A DNA stretch of 17,816 nucleotides from a virus (lineage: Duplodnaviria; Heunggongvirae; Uroviricota; Caudoviricetes): positions 64,001-81,816 of the IMG/VR virus record IMGVR_UViG_2857349434_000001; one strand, written 5' to 3'. The translations under genes and the position numbers were made by a program. Positions 5,657 through 12,111 of this stretch are shown one piece after another (within the stretch, counting starts at the first letter, position 1; each line of letters begins with the position of its first letter). Under the pieces are notes generated by a model. That model ran no database searches. It was given only the letters and a program-made list of their open reading frames with translations, and was not told the origin of the DNA.

Positions 5657-5820
5657 TAGCGTTTCCTCATCATCTTCTTGAGGTCGGCCTGCATGGCTCG
5701 ACGCTGCTTGCGGTTGCCCTGGCCGCTCGTGGCGGCCTTGGAGAACTGCTCGATCTCCTGCTCCTGGAGCCGGCCGATTGACCGGGGCTCGAGGGCCATC
5801 TTCCGCTGTTGAACGTCCAT
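5656..5820 (-). CDS. Small basic hypothetical protein (54 aa; not in ORF track)
   Basis: Manual translation MDVQQRKMALEPRSIGRLQEQEIEQFSKAATSGQGNRKQRRAMQADLKKMMRKR. TGATG overlap with the ligase stop and TAATG overlap with the next start. Confidence 0.75.
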   Translation of the reverse strand: MDVQQRKMALEPRSIGRLQEQEIEQFSKAATSGQGNRKQRRAMQADLKKMMRKR

Positions 5821-6908
5821 CAGAGCTCCCTCCCTCCCTTGTGGAACTTGGTACAGACCGGGAAGCGCGGGATGCCTCGCGCGCTCAGCTGGAAGAACTG
5901 GATGGTGCCGGGGCTACCGATCCATTCCTCCTGCTCCTCCAGGAGTTGCTTGCAGAACTCCTTGGTGCCCTTGATGCCGGCGCGCGGCCGCTCGCCGTTC
6001 TCCAGGCGGGCATCGTTGGGCAGCATGAACTCGACCCACTTGGCATGGCCGGACCAATTGCCGAGGCCTTCGCCGATCTTGGTGATCGGGAACTCGGCGT
6101 CCTGCATGTCCTTGCGTTTCAGCAGGTGGGCGGAGCGCTTGCCGATCTCGTAGTCGGCGTCCAGGCGCCCCATCTGGCCCTCGTAGCCGTTCTCCATGAA
6201 CTCCTCGTAGTCCTTGTCGAACATGGCCTGGTTGAAGGCGATACGGGTCTCGACCGGGAGAATGTGGTCGAAGCCCTGCAGCATCGCGTTGTAGACCGGG
6301 GCGCGCTGGAAGAAGGTACCCTCGAACGACGGGATGTCGTAGACATGGTACTGGACCACGCCGGCGGTCGCTGGGTTCGGCTCCTGCTTGCGGATCAGGG
6401 AGACCAGCTGTTCGAAGTCGGCCTTCAGGTCGTGGTTGTAGAGCTCGCCATCGAGCACCAGGTCCGGGTCGGCAACGAAGAGAGGCGCCAGCTCGGCCTC
6501 GATGTGCGGGCAGCTGACGATCGGCTTGCCCTGGCGGCTGAACAGGCCCTCGGCTCGGGCGATGCAGCGGATGCCGTCCAGCTTCGGCTGGCTGGCGATT
6601 GGGAACTTAATCCGACCCTTGTAGCTCTTGGCGAGCATCGGCTCGAAGAAGTTCGGTGTGGCGCACGCCTCCGGCGTCCGGTGATATTGGCGCTCGAGTT
6701 TCTTGCGCTCCTCGGCCTCGGCCTCGAACAGGGCCTGGGCCTCGGCGGTGTCCTGGCTTTTCGGCGTGCAGACGGTCCAGTCCGTCGTCACCCAGTTACC
6801 GTCCTCAAGGCCGGAGGTCGACCGCCACTTCGGGCCATCGACCTCATAGAACCAGATGCGGAGACGGCCCTGGGTGTCGCGCTTGTAGATCATGGTGGAT
6901 GTGTTCAT
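5820..6908 (-). CDS. ATP-dependent DNA ligase (362 aa) with a ~85-aa N-terminal extension
   Basis: Motif I SQPKLDGIR (adenylated Lys), motif III LDGELY, motif IV EGQMGR, motif V LLKRK, C-terminal OB fold with GIPRFP. Confidence 0.95.
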   Translation of the reverse strand: MNTSTMIYKRDTQGRLRIWFYEVDGPKWRSTSGLEDGNWVTTDWTVCTPKSQDTAEAQALFEAEAEERKKLERQYHRTPEACATPNFFEPMLAKSYKGRIKFPIASQPKLDGIRCIARAEGLFSRQGKPIVSCPHIEAELAPLFVADPDLVLDGELYNHDLKADFEQLVSLIRKQEPNPATAGVVQYHVYDIPSFEGTFFQRAPVYNAMLQGFDHILPVETRIAFNQAMFDKDYEEFMENGYEGQMGRLDADYEIGKRSAHLLKRKDMQDAEFPITKIGEGLGNWSGHAKWVEFMLPNDARLENGERPRAGIKGTKEFCKQLLEEQEEWIGSPGTIQFFQLSARGIPRFPVCTKFHKGGREL

Positions 6909-6925
6909 GCGATGTTCCTTGGAGA

Positions 6926-7642
6926 TTACGAGGGAGTGCGGCCGAAGAGCTTGTCTTCGTTCCAGCCGGCGACCTTGAGGGGCTGCTCGTTGAAGGGGGT
7001 GAGGTCGGCTTCGTTGTTGAAGTCGCGGAAGGCGCTGACCAGGCGGAAGATGCAGAGCTTGGGCTGCTTGCTGCCGCCTTCTCGATAGAAGTTCGCCACA
7101 GCGACGGCAGCGGCGTCAGCCTCGGCGGTCGAGTCACCAGCGAACATCACATCCAGGAAGGTGTTGATCTTCGCGAACTTGCGATGGGTGTAAAGAAGAG
7201 CCGCCAGGGCGCCGATCGGGAACTTGTCAAACCGAGCGACGGATCGGACCATAGCTCGGATCTCCCCATGCGCGTCGAGGATGGCGTCAGCCTCGGTGGG
7301 CGTCAGCGAACCCCTGGTGTACTCGCCGGCCGCGAGGGTGCGCATGGCGTGCAGAGCTGAGACCAGCCGCGGGATTTCCTTCTCTCCGCGGGCCTCAAGG
7401 TGAGCTGTTAGCTTGAGCTCGGGGTCGGCCGGAGCTTCGGCCACCGGGGTTATCGGCGCTGGCGCGGCAGGGGCCTGCCCGCCGATGTGATCAAGAATGA
7501 GGTTCAGTGCGGTGTCGGAGTTGGCCTGGCCAGTGAGGAGCTTCTGCAGCAGAGCCTCGACCGCGTCGAGGCGCTCCAAAATCATTACGCTTGCCTGAGA
7601 GAGGGGCTTGTCGGCGGTGATCTTCGTAGCGTGAGCGTTCAT
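6926..7642 (-). CDS. Hypothetical protein (238 aa): N-terminal coiled coil, Pro/Ala linker, helical C-terminal domain
   Basis: Long ORF with ATGA overlap with the upstream gene. No motif confidently recognised. Confidence 0.75.
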   Translation of the reverse strand: MNAHATKITADKPLSQASVMILERLDAVEALLQKLLTGQANSDTALNLILDHIGGQAPAAPAPITPVAEAPADPELKLTAHLEARGEKEIPRLVSALHAMRTLAAGEYTRGSLTPTEADAILDAHGEIRAMVRSVARFDKFPIGALAALLYTHRKFAKINTFLDVMFAGDSTAEADAAAVAVANFYREGGSKQPKLCIFRLVSAFRDFNNEADLTPFNEQPLKVAGWNEDKLFGRTPS

Positions 7643-7821
7643 CTGTAGGTGTCCTCGTGTGCGATGATGGAGTAGCGCCAGTTCGAGCCCTCGGCCCGGT
7701 TGGCTTCGATCTCCTCTTCCATTTTGGAGAGGAGGATTTGGACGTTGACCTCGGAGTCGATCTCCTCGATCTCGTAGTCTTGGTCGTCACGGATGTGACG
7801 GCCGATCAGCTTCAGCCGCAT
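7639..7821 (-). CDS. Small acidic hypothetical protein (60 aa)
   Basis: MRLKLIGRHIRDDQDYEIEEI...DTYR. SD GGAG upstream of ATG 7821. Overlaps the sigma gene end. Confidence 0.7.
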   Translation of the reverse strand: MRLKLIGRHIRDDQDYEIEEIDSEVNVQILLSKMEEEIEANRAEGSNWRYSIIAHEDTYR

Positions 7822-8282
7822 TGGATCTCCAGTTTCGTTCTTGCTCTGCTGACCTGGCTCTTGATCGTGCCCTCGGGCATGCCAAGAACCCCCGCGGCCT
7901 CGGCGTATTCGTGGCCCAGCCACCCCACCAGGTAGAGGGCGTGCTGCTGTTTCTTCGGCAGGGAATTGAAGGCGCTCAGGAAGTCCCTGAAGTCCTCTCT
8001 GGACTCCTGTGGCGCGTCCATCGCCATGGCGTTGGTGTGAAGGTCGCCCGGGTCATCCAGGATGCGACCGTCACGGCGCTTGCCGGCGATGAAATGGTTT
8101 CTCATGATGGTGAAGCACCAGGCGATCAGCCTGGTGCCGGGGTGGAACTGGTCCTTCTTGGCCAGCGCCTTCAGCATCGTGTCCTGCAGGAGATCCTCGG
8201 CCGCGTCGATCGTGCGGGCGAGCCTCATTGCCTGCCGGAACAGGTGGGGCCGGAGCCCCACCAATTCCTCCTCAAATGTCAT
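7812..8282 (-). CDS. ECF RNA polymerase sigma factor, EcfG/ECF15-like (156 aa)
   Basis: Region 2: AEDLLQDT and FHPGTRLIAWCFTIMRNHF. Region 4: LPKKQQHALYLVG...YAEAAGVLGMPEGTIKSQVSRARTKL. ATGA overlap with the polymerase stop. Confidence 0.9.
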   Translation of the reverse strand: MTFEEELVGLRPHLFRQAMRLARTIDAAEDLLQDTMLKALAKKDQFHPGTRLIAWCFTIMRNHFIAGKRRDGRILDDPGDLHTNAMAMDAPQESREDFRDFLSAFNSLPKKQQHALYLVGWLGHEYAEAAGVLGMPEGTIKSQVSRARTKLEIQCG

Positions 8283-10990
8283 GCTGCTTCCTTGAGTTTG
8301 CGCTTCTGGTGCATGAGGTAGTCGACGACGGCCAGGACGTGGTCGTCGCTCAGGCGCTTGCCCTCGGTGTCCTCGGGCAGGACGCCCGGGAGCTTGGGCG
8401 CCTCGTAGAGCTCGATCTGGCCGCCCGGCGCCTTCTTCGGGTCGTAGGGCTCGAAGGTGACGCCGATAGCCGGCGAGCTGTCGAGTTTGCACGACTTGAA
8501 CAGATCCGGGTGGTTGTTCATGCAGTCGCCGAGCATGTGCATCGCTTCGAGCACATGACGGTGGTGGACCGAGAACACGAGCTCGTCGTGGATCGGAACC
8601 ATCAGGCGCATGATCCGGAAGTCCCAGCCCATCTCCTTCATCCGCGCCATCACGCGGATGGCCGTCCTCTTGGCGATGGTGGCGCAGGTGCCCTGGACGA
8701 CCGCGTTGACGGCCTGGTTGTGCGCGCGCTTCTGGATCTTCCTGGCGATCCAGTGGACGAGCGCGTTGTAGGCCGCGTACTCGGGGCCCGTGCCCATGTC
8801 GAACTTCTGCTTGAAGGCCAGCATCCACTCATTGGTGGCCTCCCAGCGGACACGCCGGTGACCGTCCGGCAGATGAACGACGCCGTTGCGCGCCACCTGC
8901 TCGACGATGCCGACACGCCAGGCCTCGGCGACCGAGAAGCGGTCCCGATACATTTCGGTCGCGAGCTTGGTCTTCTCCTGCGACCAGCCCATGCGCTCGC
9001 CGATCGTCGCCAGCCAGCCCGAGAACCAGTAGTTGAAGTTCGAGTTCTTGCCGGCCTCGGTGCGCCAGTATTTGTAGGCCTTGTCGGGCCCGAGCGGCTC
9101 GCCCTTCAGGTTGGTGAAGAGCCGGTCGTGGTTGGCAAAGCTTGAGCCGTAGCGCTCCAGGAAGGTCTCGACCTTGTCGTACTGGCGTAGAGCCTTGAAG
9201 ATGCCCTCGTTGAGGCCTTCGCAGTCGGCCGCCAGAACCGCCGTGGCGGAGCCCAGATGCAGATCCTGGTGCGGGATCTGGCAATAGGCTTCGATGAACG
9301 TCGGGTCCTGGCTGAGCTCGCCGATGATGACCAGCTCAACGGCCGACCAGTCGCGCGACAGCACAAGGTGGTCTGCCGTGTCGCCCTCGAAGAAGCCGCG
9401 GACGTAGGTGCTCTCGCCACGCTTGGCGAGCTGCATCGCGTTCGGGTCTTCGCAGCCCATGCGTCGGGTTGCCAGCATGGAGGTGACGGTCGGATAGAGC
9501 CGGCCGGTCTCCGGGTCCGTCAGCCGGCTGTACGGCGTCAGGTAGAGCTTCATGCGCTGCTCGATGCTGGCAATCTCGCCCAGGCCCACGAGCATTTCGC
9601 GCGCCGTCTCGTGACCCTCTTCCTTGAAGCGGTCGATCAGCTTGCCGCGCGCCTCGGCGTCCGACTGGGTCTTGTTCTGGCTGACGATGCACTTGGTGCC
9701 GGTCAGGTCGTAGAAGAGGACGCGCTGGGGCATGTAGTGCGCCAGGTTGACGCCCTTGCTCTCGGGCTTGCCCTTCTCGGCCGCCCAGGCGTTCGTCACT
9801 GCACCGCGGATCTGGTAGCACTGGGCGAAGGCGTCCTCGGGATCACCCAGGGCGGCCCAGTCCTCGACCTGCTTGCGGTATTTGGCGGCGTTCTTCTGGT
9901 ACCAGCTGTCCCGCTTCATCAGGCCGAAGTGGAGATCGTCCGAAAAAGGCAGCAGCTTTCGGACGTTCGCCTTGACCTTGCGCAGGACGGTGGCAGTGTT
10001 CTCGCGCTCCTCGGCGCGGCGGGCGTGGATGTTCTCCAGGTTCACCTTCATGCCCACCTCGCGCATCTGCGCGAACAGGTGGATCATCGGGTTCTCCTGC
10101 TTGAAGAACGTTTGCGTGACGCCCTGATTGGTCTCGACCATGAACTGGAGGAGCCGGCGGAAGAGGCGCACGGCCCAGTAGGCGTCATCGGCGCCGTACT
10201 CGGCGACTTCCTCGCCGGTCAGCTGGCCCATATGGGCCTTGTCGCCCAGCACCTCCTCGAACGTCGTCATGGTGTAGCCGAACCACGACTTGACCGCCTT
10301 CTTCAGGCCGTAGCCGTAGGCGATCTCGTTGATGTAGCCGTTATAGGAGTGCGCGGCCTTGGACTGCTTGCCGATGATCGAATAGACGATCTCCGCCAGC
10401 CGACTGTCGGTGATCTCTCCCTTCTCGATGTCGAAGCCGCCGGCGGTGGCCAGCTGCAGGAGGTCGGGCATCAGCTTCGCCCAGGCGCCGCGACCGGCGT
10501 AGCGGAAGTTGGCCATGTCGTATTCGTCCGGCCCATAGGCCGACACGCACATCTGCAGCGTGCAGATGATCTCGTTCAGCGTGACGTCGAAGCAGTGCTT
10601 GAAGGCGCCCAATTCGTACGGCGCATTGTGGGCGAGCCACAGGCTGTCGCCTGGTTTGGCGTCGATCACCGCCTTGGCGGCGGCCCACGGGATGCGGTTC
10701 TCGACGTCGGCGTGCGCCAGGTTCAGGTAGTAGGCGTAGTCGGCACCCTCGGGGTAAACCGAGAAGCCGGTCATGACCGTCCGGCGCATATCGAACACCA
10801 GCTTCTTGGCCGGGGACTTTTTGCGGCTGACCGGGTCGACGCCCATGAACTGGTTCAGGCCGTCGTGGCGGTTGTCGTCCTGCGTTTCGCAGTCGAGGCC
10901 GATGAAGGCGCTCTTCTTGATCTGGTCGACGATGTGCGGAATTGCCTGGTCGACGTTGCGCGCGTCGACCAGCATGGTCTTGATTGTCAC
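8279..10990 (-). CDS. Family A DNA polymerase with 3'-5' exonuclease domain and no 5'-3' exonuclease domain (903 aa)
   Basis: ExoI LDCET, ExoII AHNAPYE, ExoIII YGADDA, motif A RDWSAVEL, motif B RTEAGKNSNFNYWF, motif C PIHDELVF. GTG at 10990 with SD AAGGA and GTGA overlap. Confidence 0.95.
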   Translation of the reverse strand: MTIKTMLVDARNVDQAIPHIVDQIKKSAFIGLDCETQDDNRHDGLNQFMGVDPVSRKKSPAKKLVFDMRRTVMTGFSVYPEGADYAYYLNLAHADVENRIPWAAAKAVIDAKPGDSLWLAHNAPYELGAFKHCFDVTLNEIICTLQMCVSAYGPDEYDMANFRYAGRGAWAKLMPDLLQLATAGGFDIEKGEITDSRLAEIVYSIIGKQSKAAHSYNGYINEIAYGYGLKKAVKSWFGYTMTTFEEVLGDKAHMGQLTGEEVAEYGADDAYWAVRLFRRLLQFMVETNQGVTQTFFKQENPMIHLFAQMREVGMKVNLENIHARRAEERENTATVLRKVKANVRKLLPFSDDLHFGLMKRDSWYQKNAAKYRKQVEDWAALGDPEDAFAQCYQIRGAVTNAWAAEKGKPESKGVNLAHYMPQRVLFYDLTGTKCIVSQNKTQSDAEARGKLIDRFKEEGHETAREMLVGLGEIASIEQRMKLYLTPYSRLTDPETGRLYPTVTSMLATRRMGCEDPNAMQLAKRGESTYVRGFFEGDTADHLVLSRDWSAVELVIIGELSQDPTFIEAYCQIPHQDLHLGSATAVLAADCEGLNEGIFKALRQYDKVETFLERYGSSFANHDRLFTNLKGEPLGPDKAYKYWRTEAGKNSNFNYWFSGWLATIGERMGWSQEKTKLATEMYRDRFSVAEAWRVGIVEQVARNGVVHLPDGHRRVRWEATNEWMLAFKQKFDMGTGPEYAAYNALVHWIARKIQKRAHNQAVNAVVQGTCATIAKRTAIRVMARMKEMGWDFRIMRLMVPIHDELVFSVHHRHVLEAMHMLGDCMNNHPDLFKSCKLDSSPAIGVTFEPYDPKKAPGGQIELYEAPKLPGVLPEDTEGKRLSDDHVLAVVDYLMHQKRKLKEAA

Positions 10991-11757
10991 TGCAGAAATT
11001 CCTTCAGGGTTGCGTCGGCCTTGGCGAGGTCCGGCTGGCCGATGACGGTGTGCTCGGTGACGAGGTCTTCCGGCACGTCGAGGAAGCCGACGATGTCCCA
11101 GTAGGCCTTGAACAGCTGCGGGTTCTCGTCGAGCCACGAGATCATCTTGGGCTGCAGCTTGACGTCCTCACGCCAGGTGGGGTCGCCAGCGAAGATCTTG
11201 TCGGTGGCGCGCTGGAGCCGCTGGGGGCCGTTCTCCAGCCACAGGCTTTCACCGAAGCGAGGCACGCCCGGGATCTTGTCCGAGCTATCACCGCACCACG
11301 TCTTGTAGAGACGCACATGGTGGGGCGCGACGTTCTCCTTCGGCTTCGCCCCGCAGACGACGTTCTTCGGGAACTCACCGACGAGCTGCATCATGTCGTA
11401 GTCGTTGGAGTAGATCGCGATGATCTGGCCCTTGGGCGCGTAGCGCCTGACCAGCAGGGCAATCACGTCGTCGGCCTCGTAGCCGGGGACCTTGATCTGG
11501 ACGGCCTTGGTGTGTTCCAGGGCCTTCTGCGTCATGTGGAAGCCGTTGTAGATGCCGGTGTCCGGTGCCTTACGGCCGACCTTGTATCCGGGGAAAATCT
11601 CCCGGCGCTTCGAGCTTCCCTTGGGACCGTCCCAAACGCAGATGACTGGATCGGGACAGGCGAACACGTCCTGCATGAAGTTGCGGGGCCCGAGACCGCT
11701 GATGTCGGTCTCGAGCACCACCCTCATGTACGAGTTCATGTCGTACACGCGGAGCAT
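10987..11757 (-). CDS. 5'-3' exonuclease / flap endonuclease (256 aa)
   Basis: VYDMN, CVWDG, KRREIFPGYK, EADDVIA, SNDYDMMQL, and H3TH motif GDSSDKIPGVPRFG. Adjacent to PolA. Confidence 0.93.
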   Translation of the reverse strand: MLRVYDMNSYMRVVLETDISGLGPRNFMQDVFACPDPVICVWDGPKGSSKRREIFPGYKVGRKAPDTGIYNGFHMTQKALEHTKAVQIKVPGYEADDVIALLVRRYAPKGQIIAIYSNDYDMMQLVGEFPKNVVCGAKPKENVAPHHVRLYKTWCGDSSDKIPGVPRFGESLWLENGPQRLQRATDKIFAGDPTWREDVKLQPKMISWLDENPQLFKAYWDIVGFLDVPEDLVTEHTVIGQPDLAKADATLKEFLQ

Positions 11758-11759
11758 GA

Positions 11760-12020
11760 TCAGGCGGCCATGCCCAGGGCTTCTTCGTACAGGTCCAGGA
11801 TCGAGTCCTGTTCCTGGCGCTCAGCCGCGTCCAGCTTGCGGCGCCGGACGATTGTGCGGATCGCCTTGGTGTCGTAGCCCCGGCCCTTCGCCTCCGAGTA
11901 GACATCGGAGATGTCCTCGGTGATCGTCTTCTTCTCTTCTTCGAGGCGCTCGACGCGCTCGATGATGGAGCGCAGTTCTGCTGCAGCCACGGTCTGGCTG
12001 GTGTCGGTGACGTCGTCCAT
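11760..12020 (-). CDS. gapR: GapR-like (DUF2312) nucleoid-associated DNA-binding protein (86 aa)
   Basis: [49 protein letters not shown]...[14 protein letters not shown] is the DUF2312 consensus as I recall it. SD GGAG upstream of ATG 12020. Confidence 0.92.
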
Positions 12021-12042
12021 TCTTGTTCTCCGGAATTTTGGG

Positions 12043-12074
12043 AATAAAAAAGGGCGGGACACGAAGTCCCGCCC
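12043..12074 (-). terminator. Intrinsic terminator after the putative SSB gene
   Basis: Minus strand GGGCGGGAC-TTCGT-GTCCCGCCC-TTTTTTATT: 9-bp stem plus U-tract. Confidence 0.88.
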
Positions 12075-12080
12075 AGGTTG

Positions 12081-12111
12081 GCCGGGGCCAAATGACACAA
12101 AATGCCCCGGC
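12081..12111. other. Second stem-loop immediately upstream of the terminator
   Basis: gccggggc (12081-12088) and gccccggc (12104-12111) form an 8-bp GC stem around a 15-nt AT-rich loop. Confidence 0.6.

What the first reader, a model, noticed from the sequence alone, without database searches (positions are those of the whole stretch)
7812..8282. Phage-encoded EcfG-like (general stress response) sigma factor translationally coupled to the DNA polymerase
Seen: a compact 156-aa sigma2-sigma4 protein whose ATG overlaps the PolA stop. Knowledge: FHPGTRLIAWCFTIMRNHF and LVG..YAEAA....GTIKS..SRAR closely follow the alphaproteobacterial ECF15 family (EcfG/SigT/RpoE2). That family is controlled by partner switching between the anti-sigma NepR and PhyR, whose sigma-like domain is a decoy. 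Seen: the region 4.2 recognition helix reads GTIKSQVSRAR, where EcfG proteins typically have GTIKSRVNRAR. Inference: it is either a phage sigma with re-tuned -35 specificity that switches on post-replicative genes, or a viral PhyR-like mimic that titrates NepR and turns on the host stress regulon during infection.
Basis: partly seen in the sequence, partly recalled or inferred. Interest (0 to 1): 0.75.

Follow-up and report, generated by a model that had tools for sequence, protein, structure and literature searches.

The report
Accessory EcfG-like sigma factor in prophage
A temperate Mesorhizobium-type phage carries an optional copy of the sigma factor that controls the alphaproteobacterial general stress response, placed right behind its DNA polymerase gene. 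It most likely lets the phage act on the host's stress regulon rather than run its own late genes.

Summary
Window 7812-8282 (minus strand) encodes a 156-aa sigma2-sigma4 ECF sigma factor. Its ATG overlaps the PolA stop codon (ATGA) and a Shine-Dalgarno sequence lies 6 nt upstream.

The "EcfG-like" reading is largely supported:
- The best solved relative by far is the Bartonella quintana RpoE/EcfG crystallised with NepR (5UXX): 110 bits, about 42% identity without gaps, against 66 bits for the next ECF.
- In 26 of 31 sampled alphaproteobacterial genomes that have nepR, the best genomic match to the phage protein lies beside nepR.
- Trees place the phage lineage inside or sister to the NepR-linked clade.

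It is not PhyR-like. It has no receiver domain, and both sigma domains score above the Pfam cut-offs.

The phage has no nepR and no GGAAC-N16-17-CGTT promoter, whereas cellular ecfG loci are full of them. The claimed re-tuned 4.2 helix reduces to one variable R-to-Q position.

The gene is accessory. It sits in a variable slot between PolA and the ligase. Five near-complete related phages, one with 81%-identical PolA, have no ECF sigma at all. This argues against an essential late-gene sigma and favours a host-directed role in activating the stress regulon, which remains untested. The scan had not found this protein on other DNA. Verdict: a new member of a known kind, of moderate interest.

The parts
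7812..8282 (-). EcfG-like ECF sigma factor, 156 aa (P0001): sigma2 at residues 1-72, a low-confidence linker at 73-92, and sigma4 at 93-155.
   Evidence: Translation; Pfam r2 plus r4_2; AF2 model with pLDDT 89; best PDB match 5UXX_A.
8279..10993 (-). Family A DNA polymerase with a 3'-5' exonuclease region. Its TGA overlaps the sigma ATG. The start at GTG 10993 is inferred from the 903-904-aa relatives; the open frame runs on to 11137.
8279..8296 (-). Coupling junction: AAGGAAGCAGC-ATGA. An AGGA Shine-Dalgarno lies 6 nt before the ATG, and the stop and start codons overlap.
   Evidence: Read. The overlap is conserved in relatives.
7639..7821 (-). Conserved 60-aa acidic ORF whose ATG overlaps the end of the sigma gene by 10 nt. 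It has no known family. It travels with the sigma gene in most relatives but not all.
6926..7642 (-). 238-aa ORF of unknown family that fills the rest of the variable PolA-ligase slot. It is not conserved in relatives.
   Evidence: in L002/L188 a 98-99-aa ORF takes its place.
5820..6908 (-). ATP-dependent DNA ligase, the conserved downstream border of the slot.
   Evidence: phrog_114 at 7.9e-58; synteny.

Best explanation
The gene encodes a working ECF sigma factor of the EcfG (ECF15) kind, the master sigma of the alphaproteobacterial general stress response. It is carried as an accessory gene in a variable slot between the polymerase and ligase genes of a temperate Mesorhizobium-type phage.

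It is translated together with PolA when the replication operon is on. It then binds host core RNA polymerase and most likely reads EcfG-type promoters (GGAAC-N16-17-CGTT or near variants). The phage genome has none of these, so the targets would be in the host chromosome. The phage would thereby switch on all or part of the host stress regulon without PhyR phosphorylation. It has no NepR of its own. If host NepR binds it, it would also soak NepR up and free host EcfG, which pushes in the same direction.

Shown here: the gene, its coupling to PolA, its family affinity, its accessory status, and the lack of nepR and of canonical promoters in the phage.

Inferred: core binding, promoter specificity, host targets and benefit to the phage.

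Confidence that it is an EcfG-like sigma is about 0.85. Confidence in the host-directed mechanism is given below.
For: Family:
- phmmer against the PDB gives 5UXX_A (B. quintana RpoE co-crystallised with NepR; chain B is NepR) at 110.5 bits over residues 3-152 without a gap. The next ECF, SigH, scores 65.9 bits. The profile search gives 208 against 124 bits. Foldseek also ranks 5UXX first.
- In 201 sampled alphaproteobacterial genomes, 31 have nepR above the Pfam cut-off. In 26 of these the genome's best match to P0001 lies within 2 kb of nepR.
- None of 27 NrsF (ECF16-type) loci lies near any match at E<=1e-12.
- The trees put the phage lineage inside (SH-aLRT 97) or sister to (UFBoot 86) the NepR-linked clade.

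Real sigma, not a decoy: both domains score above the Pfam cut-offs. No column is fixed differently from EcfG. AW.FTI.RN and GT.KS.V.RAR are kept.

No phage targets of the canonical kind:
- The strict motif occurs 0 times in G000, G203 and G204.
- Relaxed AAC-N16-17-CGTT gives 12, 9 and 15 hits, which is chance level, and none is both conserved and intergenic.
- As a positive control, the same motif gives 13 hits in 44 kb of cellular ecfG loci, in 9 of 10 loci flanking the best cellular matches.

Accessory status:
- Of 20 IMG/VR loci with PolA at 42-82% identity, only 3 carry the sigma gene.
- Five 98-100% complete relatives have no ECF sigma anywhere.
- In G207 (PolA 81% identical) the PolA-ligase slot holds about 870 unrelated bases.

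Precedent: phage-borne homologues of host alternative sigmas alter host development (PMC9429907). Orphan EcfG paralogues without an adjacent nepR, including one on a plasmid, exist (PMC3892343).
Against: There is no direct evidence on promoter specificity, core binding or any effect on the host.

The careful LG+G4 tree places the lineage outside the NepR-linked clade as its sister, with weak SH-aLRT support (38). It could therefore have its own specificity, as reported for the non-canonical EcfG2 of R. etli (PMC8103513, PMC3892343).

Several positions that are well conserved in EcfG are relaxed in the phage lineage: LRAFA in region 2.1, G-F-SYEE before region 4.2, and the R of KSR.

The sigma lineage persists in phages down to about 40% identity, always in the replication module. 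That is also what one would expect of a gene serving the phage's own programme.

A phage needs only one to three sigma-dependent promoters, so my motif searches have little power against a non-canonical site.
Confidence: 0.45

Rival explanations
1. It is a phage middle or late-gene sigma with its own non-canonical promoter specificity. It is made with the replication proteins and redirects host RNA polymerase to a few phage promoters (structural or lysis genes). Relatives without it would use another activator.
For: - This is the classical role of phage-encoded sigma factors (established knowledge: T4 gp55, SPO1 gp28).
- The gene lies in the early/middle replication operon and is coupled to PolA.
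- The lineage is conserved in phages from 40 to 88% identity.
- Some EcfG-conserved positions are relaxed.
- The careful tree places it outside the NepR-linked clade.
Against: - Five near-complete relatives with the same about 80-kb layout have no ECF sigma, including one with 81%-identical PolA.
- No repeated or conserved ECF-like two-box motif turned up in upstream regions.
- The one clear conserved promoter in the late region (about G000 56,700) looks sigma70-like: TGAACA-N18-TATATT.
Confidence: 0.27
2. It is a NepR sponge. The protein acts mainly by binding host NepR, as the PhyR sigma-like domain does, which frees host EcfG. Its own transcription activity would be irrelevant or lost.
For: - Its closest solved relative was crystallised bound to NepR.
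- The phage has no nepR, so any free host NepR would meet an extra EcfG-like surface.
Against: - The DNA-binding and core-binding regions are not degenerate: Sigma70_r2 and r4_2 score above their cut-offs, while PhyR_sigma2 scores 17.9 bits (cut-off 27).
- Identity to PhyR structures is 11-17%.
- Purifying selection keeps GT.KS.V.RAR and AW.FTI.RN across the lineage.
Confidence: 0.1
3. It is a recently captured host ecfG copy with no selected function in the phage, i.e. passenger DNA in a variable slot.
For: It lies in a hypervariable slot and is missing from close relatives.
Against: - It is only about 40-46% identical to the closest cellular sigmas found.
- It forms a phage-only lineage (UFBoot 94) with members from 40 to 88% identity, all intact and in the same position.
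- The overlapping start codon and the Shine-Dalgarno sequence are conserved.
Confidence: 0.03

Closest known systems
EcfG / ECF15 sigma factors of Alphaproteobacteria (B. quintana RpoE in PDB 5UXX; S. meliloti RpoE2, C. crescentus SigT, M. extorquens EcfG1 by established knowledge)
   Same: - Two-domain sigma2-sigma4 protein of the same length.
- About 42% identity to 5UXX_A with no gaps.
- Shared motifs DL.QDT, F..GT.L.AW.FTI.RN and GTIKS.VSRAR.
- The host clade is alphaproteobacterial.
- The best genomic matches are nepR-linked.
   Different: - Encoded on a phage, inside a replication operon.
- No nepR or phyR, and no autoregulatory GGAAC-N16-17-CGTT promoter.
- Regions LRAFA and G-F-SYEE are relaxed, and the R of KSR is mostly Q.
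- Tree position is inside or sister to the cellular clade, depending on model.
Non-canonical (orphan) EcfG paralogues, e.g. R. etli EcfG2 (PF00052), M. extorquens EcfG2-6, C. crescentus SigU (PMC3892343, PMC8103513)
   Same: EcfG-like sequence without an adjacent nepR or phyR. At least some of them lack autoregulation. R. etli EcfG2 carries a PF-prefixed locus tag, which by my knowledge marks plasmid p42f, so it too is on a mobile replicon.
   Different: Those are cellular or plasmid genes wired into the host stress network. This one is on a phage and is co-translated with a DNA polymerase.
ECF-type sigma factors annotated in rhizobiophages (Sinorhizobium phage phiM9 rpoE gp085; Agrobacterium phage Atu_ph04 gp28) and PHROG 1740
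   Same: Phage-encoded ECF sigmas of alphaproteobacterial hosts. P0001 matches phrog_1740 at 1.2e-29. In my tree both fall on the EcfG-like side, on long branches.
   Different: They are only 29-37% identical. They sit in 140-150-kb lytic T4-like phages, beside phoH and structural genes rather than PolA. Their function is also unknown.
PhyR sigma-like domain (anti-anti-sigma; PDB 3T0Y, 2LFW, 4QIC)
   Same: An EcfG-derived fold that binds NepR.
   Different: PhyR carries a receiver domain and a degenerate sigma-like domain. The phage protein has neither feature.

Membership tests
ECF sigma factors (group 4 sigma70) | Only sigma2 and sigma4 domains, about 150-200 aa | tested here: met
   Pfam Sigma70_r2 plus Sigma70_r4_2; TIGR02937 at 70.1 bits (cut-off 42.9). 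The AF2 model shows two helical domains, pLDDT 89.
EcfG / ECF15 | Sequence closer to characterised EcfG than to other ECF groups | tested here: met
   5UXX_A (NepR-bound B. quintana sigma) scores 110.5 bits, against 65.9 for the next ECF. Foldseek ranks it first. The best genomic match is nepR-adjacent in 26 of 31 genomes. No NrsF-linked sigma appears among the matches.
EcfG / ECF15 | Falls within the clade of nepR-linked sigma factors | tested here: inconclusive
   The quick LG+C20 tree puts it inside a 39-row clade with 4 nepR-linked sigmas (SH-aLRT 97). The careful LG+G4 tree puts it as sister to the nepR-linked clade (node 86/38). The tree that also includes long-branch phage sigmas puts it on the EcfG-like side (83).
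EcfG / ECF15 | Encoded beside nepR (anti-sigma) and phyR. This holds for the primary copy only; orphan paralogues exist (PMC3892343). | tested here: not met
   No NepR match in G000 even at E<=10, nor in G203/G204 at E<=1. The neighbours are PolA, a 60-aa ORF, a 238-aa ORF and the ligase.
EcfG / ECF15 | Autoregulation from a GGAAC-N16-17-CGTT promoter (canonical copies; PMC8103513, PMC3892343) | tested here: not met
   The strict motif occurs 0 times in G000, G203 and G204. It occurs 13 times in 44 kb of cellular ecfG loci.
EcfG / ECF15 | Inhibited by binding of NepR | not testable with these tools
The paper on the 5UXX interface is not held.
EcfG / ECF15 | Recognises an AAC -35 box and a CGTT -10 box | not testable with these tools
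   Indirect evidence only: the recognition-helix and region 2.4 motifs are kept.
PhyR-like anti-anti-sigma mimic | Degenerate sigma-like domain fused to a receiver domain | tested here: not met
   The protein is 156 aa with no Response_reg domain. PhyR_sigma2 scores 17.9 bits, below the cut-off of 27. Identity to PhyR structures is 11-17%.

The most novel reading that the evidence does not exclude
A family of temperate Phyllobacteriaceae phages carries an EcfG-family sigma, together with a co-travelling 60-aa partner protein, as a portable switch. During induction or infection it turns on the host's general stress response independently of PhyR phosphorylation, either because NepR does not bind it or because it titrates NepR. 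This would be the first case of a virus taking control of the alphaproteobacterial partner-switching stress pathway.
Probability: 0.3. Interest if true: 0.75.

Novelty: new member of a known kind. Interest (0 to 1): 0.48.

Why it matters
EcfG controls survival under stress, symbiosis and virulence in many Alphaproteobacteria, and it is usually described as a strictly cellular regulator held in check by NepR and PhyR. I found no paper describing a phage-borne copy.

A phage-borne EcfG-like sigma without an anti-sigma gene is a simple, testable handle on two questions. Do phages manipulate the general stress response of rhizobia? And how far can an EcfG-type sigma drift and still be recognised by NepR and by EcfG promoters?

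If instead it drives phage promoters, it would define a new promoter class for this phage group. Either way the finding is a lead, not a demonstrated mechanism.

Tried and rejected
- Host NepR: I could not obtain a Mesorhizobium NepR. The Mesorhizobium assemblies that hold related prophages are not among the held genomes. A NepR query found only itself. The cluster look-up of the nearest cellular sigmas returned no Mesorhizobium names.
- Expression: no RNA holder is listed for the stretch.
- De novo promoter search: k-mer and two-box enumeration in upstream regions gave only terminator stems and a CCCCAGAAC 9-mer with no conserved -10 partner. Footprinting across three collinear genomes gave conserved blocks but no shared ECF-like motif.
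- ECF16 (SigF/NrsF) as an alternative family: rejected.
- The small downstream ORFs as an anti-sigma: no Pfam or PHROG family. The 60-aa ORF is conserved but is absent in L003 and stands alone in a Phyllobacterium locus, so it is neither shown nor excluded as a partner.
- The careful IQ-TREE run on 103 rows with the C20 model did not finish in two 300-s calls. A 69-row LG+G4 run was used instead.
- The Luebke et al. 2018 paper on 5UXX is not held.
- megablast of 6 kb of the window against GenBank phages: no match.

Full report
**1. What is there**

The window is the last 17.8 kb of an 81,816-bp IMG/VR virus record, rated 100% complete by CheckV. The record carries:
- an integrase at its left end;
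- a primase;
- large terminase, portal, major head and tail genes on the plus strand (25-58 kb);
- a replication and nucleotide-metabolism module on the minus strand (59-81.8 kb).

Within that module, window 7812-8282 (minus strand) encodes a 156-aa protein. It has Sigma70_r2 and Sigma70_r4_2 domains and nothing else. It matches phrog_1740, 'RNA polymerase sigma factor'.

Its ATG overlaps the TGA of a family A DNA polymerase (ATGA), and an AGGA lies 6 nt upstream. The same 4-nt overlap is present in all PolA-adjacent relatives I read. An AlphaFold2 model built on 21 relatives gives two confident helical domains joined by a flexible linker (pLDDT 89).

**2. Who its relatives are**

Close homologues (60-88% identity) come from Mesorhizobium assemblies, on contigs of 180-700 kb, and from metagenomes. 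All show the order 5'-3' exonuclease, PolA, sigma, (small ORFs), ligase.

IMG/VR holds collinear proviruses with about 80% nucleotide identity: G203 and G204. Homologues of the neighbouring 60-aa ORF also occur in Nitratireductor and Phyllobacterium, so the hosts are Phyllobacteriaceae-type Alphaproteobacteria.

An exhaustive profile search of 1.84 billion representatives found a graded series of further relatives. The nearest three I looked up (P0013, P0014, P0017) are again phage-borne and follow PolA.

**3. Is it EcfG-like?**

Four independent lines of evidence say yes.

(i) Solved structures. The best match by a wide margin is 5UXX chain A, the Bartonella quintana sigma factor co-crystallised with NepR. 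The single-sequence search gives 110.5 bits over residues 3-152 without a gap, about 42% identity by my count, against 65.9 bits for M. tuberculosis SigH. The profile search gives 208 against 124 bits. Chain B of 5UXX matches my NepR profile. Foldseek with the model also ranks 5UXX first, and PhyR sigma-like domains come far lower at 11-17% identity.

(ii) Genomic context of the best cellular matches. I searched 201 evenly sampled alphaproteobacterial genomes with P0001 and with the Pfam NepR model. Of these, 31 genomes have nepR above the cut-off. In 26 of them the best P0001 match lies within 2 kb of nepR, usually directly downstream on the same strand. In four of the five exceptions a nepR-adjacent sigma is the second or third best match. 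In the fifth (G044) the second-best match lies 6 kb from a nepR. I read two loci in full. L095 is a textbook arrangement of histidine kinase, ecfG, nepR and divergent phyR. L097 (Sphingomonas) is nepR, phyR, ecfG.

(iii) A control family. None of 27 NrsF (SigF/ECF16-type) loci lies near any match at E<=1e-12.

(iv) Trees.
- A 96-row tree (LG+C20, quick search) nests the phage lineage in a 39-row clade with four nepR-linked sigmas and no other ECF (SH-aLRT 97).
- A 69-row careful LG+G4 tree makes the phage lineage monophyletic (UFBoot 94 / SH-aLRT 70). Together with three orphan ECFs it is sister to the nepR-linked clade, but the joint node is only 86/38.
- Adding long-branch phage sigmas keeps it on the EcfG-like side (83).

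My conclusion is that it lies 'within or immediately sister to ECF15'. Family-level affinity is solid. Strict clade membership is unresolved.

**4. What it lacks**

No NepR-like ORF exists in the phage or in its two collinear relatives.

The canonical EcfG promoter, GGAAC-N16-17-CGTT (PMC3892343, PMC8103513), occurs zero times in G000, G203 and G204. The relaxed form, AAC-N16-17-CGTT, occurs 12, 9 and 15 times. That is what base composition predicts, and no hit is both conserved and intergenic.

The method does detect real sites. The same strict motif occurs 13 times in 44 kb of the cellular loci that hold the best matches, in 9 of 10 such loci, where about 0.7 would be expected.

The phage copy is therefore an orphan, non-autoregulated member, comparable to the 'non-canonical' EcfG paralogues described in R. 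etli and M. extorquens (PMC3892343, PMC8103513).

**5. The 're-tuned helix'**

The phage reads GTIKSQVSRAR and the solved Bartonella EcfG reads GTIKSRVSRAR, a single R-to-Q change.

Among the eight closest phage homologues that position is Q, R or K, and the next variable position is S, C, H or N. I compared 21 phage-lineage sequences, 17 nepR-linked sigmas and 21 other ECFs column by column. No column is fixed differently between the phage lineage and EcfG. The phage lineage merely relaxes some EcfG-conserved positions: LRAFA, G-F-SYEE and the R of KSR.

This is weak evidence for altered specificity. It is fair evidence that the DNA-recognition elements are under selection, which speaks against a pure decoy.

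**6. Core or accessory?**

This was the most informative test. With a PolA profile I fetched 20 IMG/VR loci whose PolA is 42-82% identical to the window's. Only three carry the sigma gene, and those three also carry the 60-aa ORF.

Five relatives that are 98-100% complete (two with terminal repeats) have no ECF sigma anywhere in their roughly 81-kb genomes. In one of them (G207, PolA 81% identical) nucleotide homology to the window runs through the PolA stop and resumes at the ligase. About 870 unrelated bases fill the gap.

Other relatives fill the same slot differently:
- sigma alone (L003);
- sigma plus a 57- or 60-aa ORF and a 98- or 99-aa ORF (L002, L188);
- sigma plus the 60-aa ORF (L158).

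The sigma gene is therefore cargo in a variable slot, not part of the conserved programme of this phage group.

**7. Mechanism**

An essential late-gene sigma is hard to reconcile with section 6. There is also no conserved ECF-like promoter upstream of the terminase, head, tail or lysis genes. The one clear conserved late-region promoter looks sigma70-like.

A PhyR-like decoy is contradicted by section 5 and by the domain scores.

The remaining and, in my view, most likely reading is as follows. The protein is a real EcfG-type sigma, made together with PolA, that reads EcfG-type promoters. Those promoters exist in the host and not in the phage. The phage would thus turn on the host general stress regulon during lytic development, with NepR titration as a possible side effect. 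There is precedent for phage copies of host alternative sigmas altering host physiology (PMC9429907).

I put this reading at about 0.45, the phage-promoter alternative at about 0.27, and a pure NepR sponge at about 0.10. Nothing here shows binding to core polymerase, to NepR or to DNA.

**8. Novelty and score**

Phage-encoded ECF sigmas are catalogued (PHROG 1740; phiM9 rpoE and Atu_ph04 gp28), and orphan EcfG paralogues on mobile replicons are known. I found no paper on a phage-borne EcfG.

This is a new member of a known kind in a new setting, and it offers a clear and cheap experimental test. The re-tuned helix and the PhyR-mimic idea do not hold, and the function remains inferred.

Earlier notes of this scan on the same genome also call it a temperate Mesorhizobium-type prophage. 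The scan had not recorded this protein on other DNA.

Noticed in passing
window 7639-7821 (minus): A 60-aa acidic ORF (MRLKLIGRHIRDD...EGSNWRYSI) starts 10 nt before the sigma stop codon. It is 52-82% identical in more than 20 Mesorhizobium, Nitratireductor and Phyllobacterium records and has no Pfam or PHROG family. It follows the sigma gene in most relatives, including a Nitratireductor phage (L195). It is missing in L003 and stands without a sigma gene in a Phyllobacterium locus (L194). It could be a sigma partner or just a neighbour.
   Followed up: partly
window 6922-8276, between the PolA stop and the ligase: This is a hypervariable cargo slot. Its content differs among otherwise collinear phages: sigma + 60 aa + 238 aa here; sigma alone in L003; sigma + 57 aa + 98 aa in L002; about 870 unrelated bases and no sigma in G207/L199.
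   Followed up: yes
G206 (IMGVR_UViG_3300020156_000029, 64 kb): L186 509-533(+), 2623-2647(-), 3417-3441(-); sigma at L165 3001-3447: An unrelated complete phage with no family A polymerase carries another EcfG-like sigma (42% identical to P0001; PhyR_sigma2 and Sigma70_r2 both significant). Its sigma lies downstream of a CI/LexA-like repressor (HTH_3 + Peptidase_S24) and a DnaN-like clamp. Three strict GGAAC-N16-CGTT motifs cluster within 3 kb of it, and one lies 34 nt before the repressor's start codon. Here an EcfG-type promoter may drive a phage lysogeny operon.
   Followed up: partly
L192 2935-3489 (phiM9 rpoE) and L193 2974-3456 (Atu_ph04 gp28): The annotated ECF sigmas of these T4-like rhizobiophages fall on the EcfG-like side of my tree, though on very long branches. 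Rhizobiophage ECF sigmas in general may derive from EcfG.
   Followed up: partly
G000 19247(+), 21465(+), 56646(+), 32808(-) (outside the window): The 9-mer CCCCAGAAC occurs four times in the genome, and all four are in intergenic regions. No conserved downstream partner was found and it is only partly conserved in relatives. It remains unexplained.
   Followed up: partly
G000 61,504-61,608 (outside the window; L174): A nearly invariant intergenic block lies in front of the class II ribonucleotide reductase gene. A GC hairpin with a U-run ends directly at the ATG. It is preceded by CACCCTATAGTATCACC-like near-palindromes, which may be NrdR-type or repressor boxes. Similar TACTCTAG-like sequences sit upstream of the terminase gene and in the lysogeny switch region.
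   Followed up: no
G000 39,991-40,046 (outside the window; L172): A 56-nt stretch is identical in three genomes that otherwise share about 80% identity. It lies between the Arc-like gene and the major tail gene.
   Followed up: no
window 11760-12098 (minus): A GapR-like DNA-binding protein (PF10073, 1.4e-31) lies between the helicase region and the 5'-3' exonuclease. It is conserved in all relatives read.
   Followed up: no
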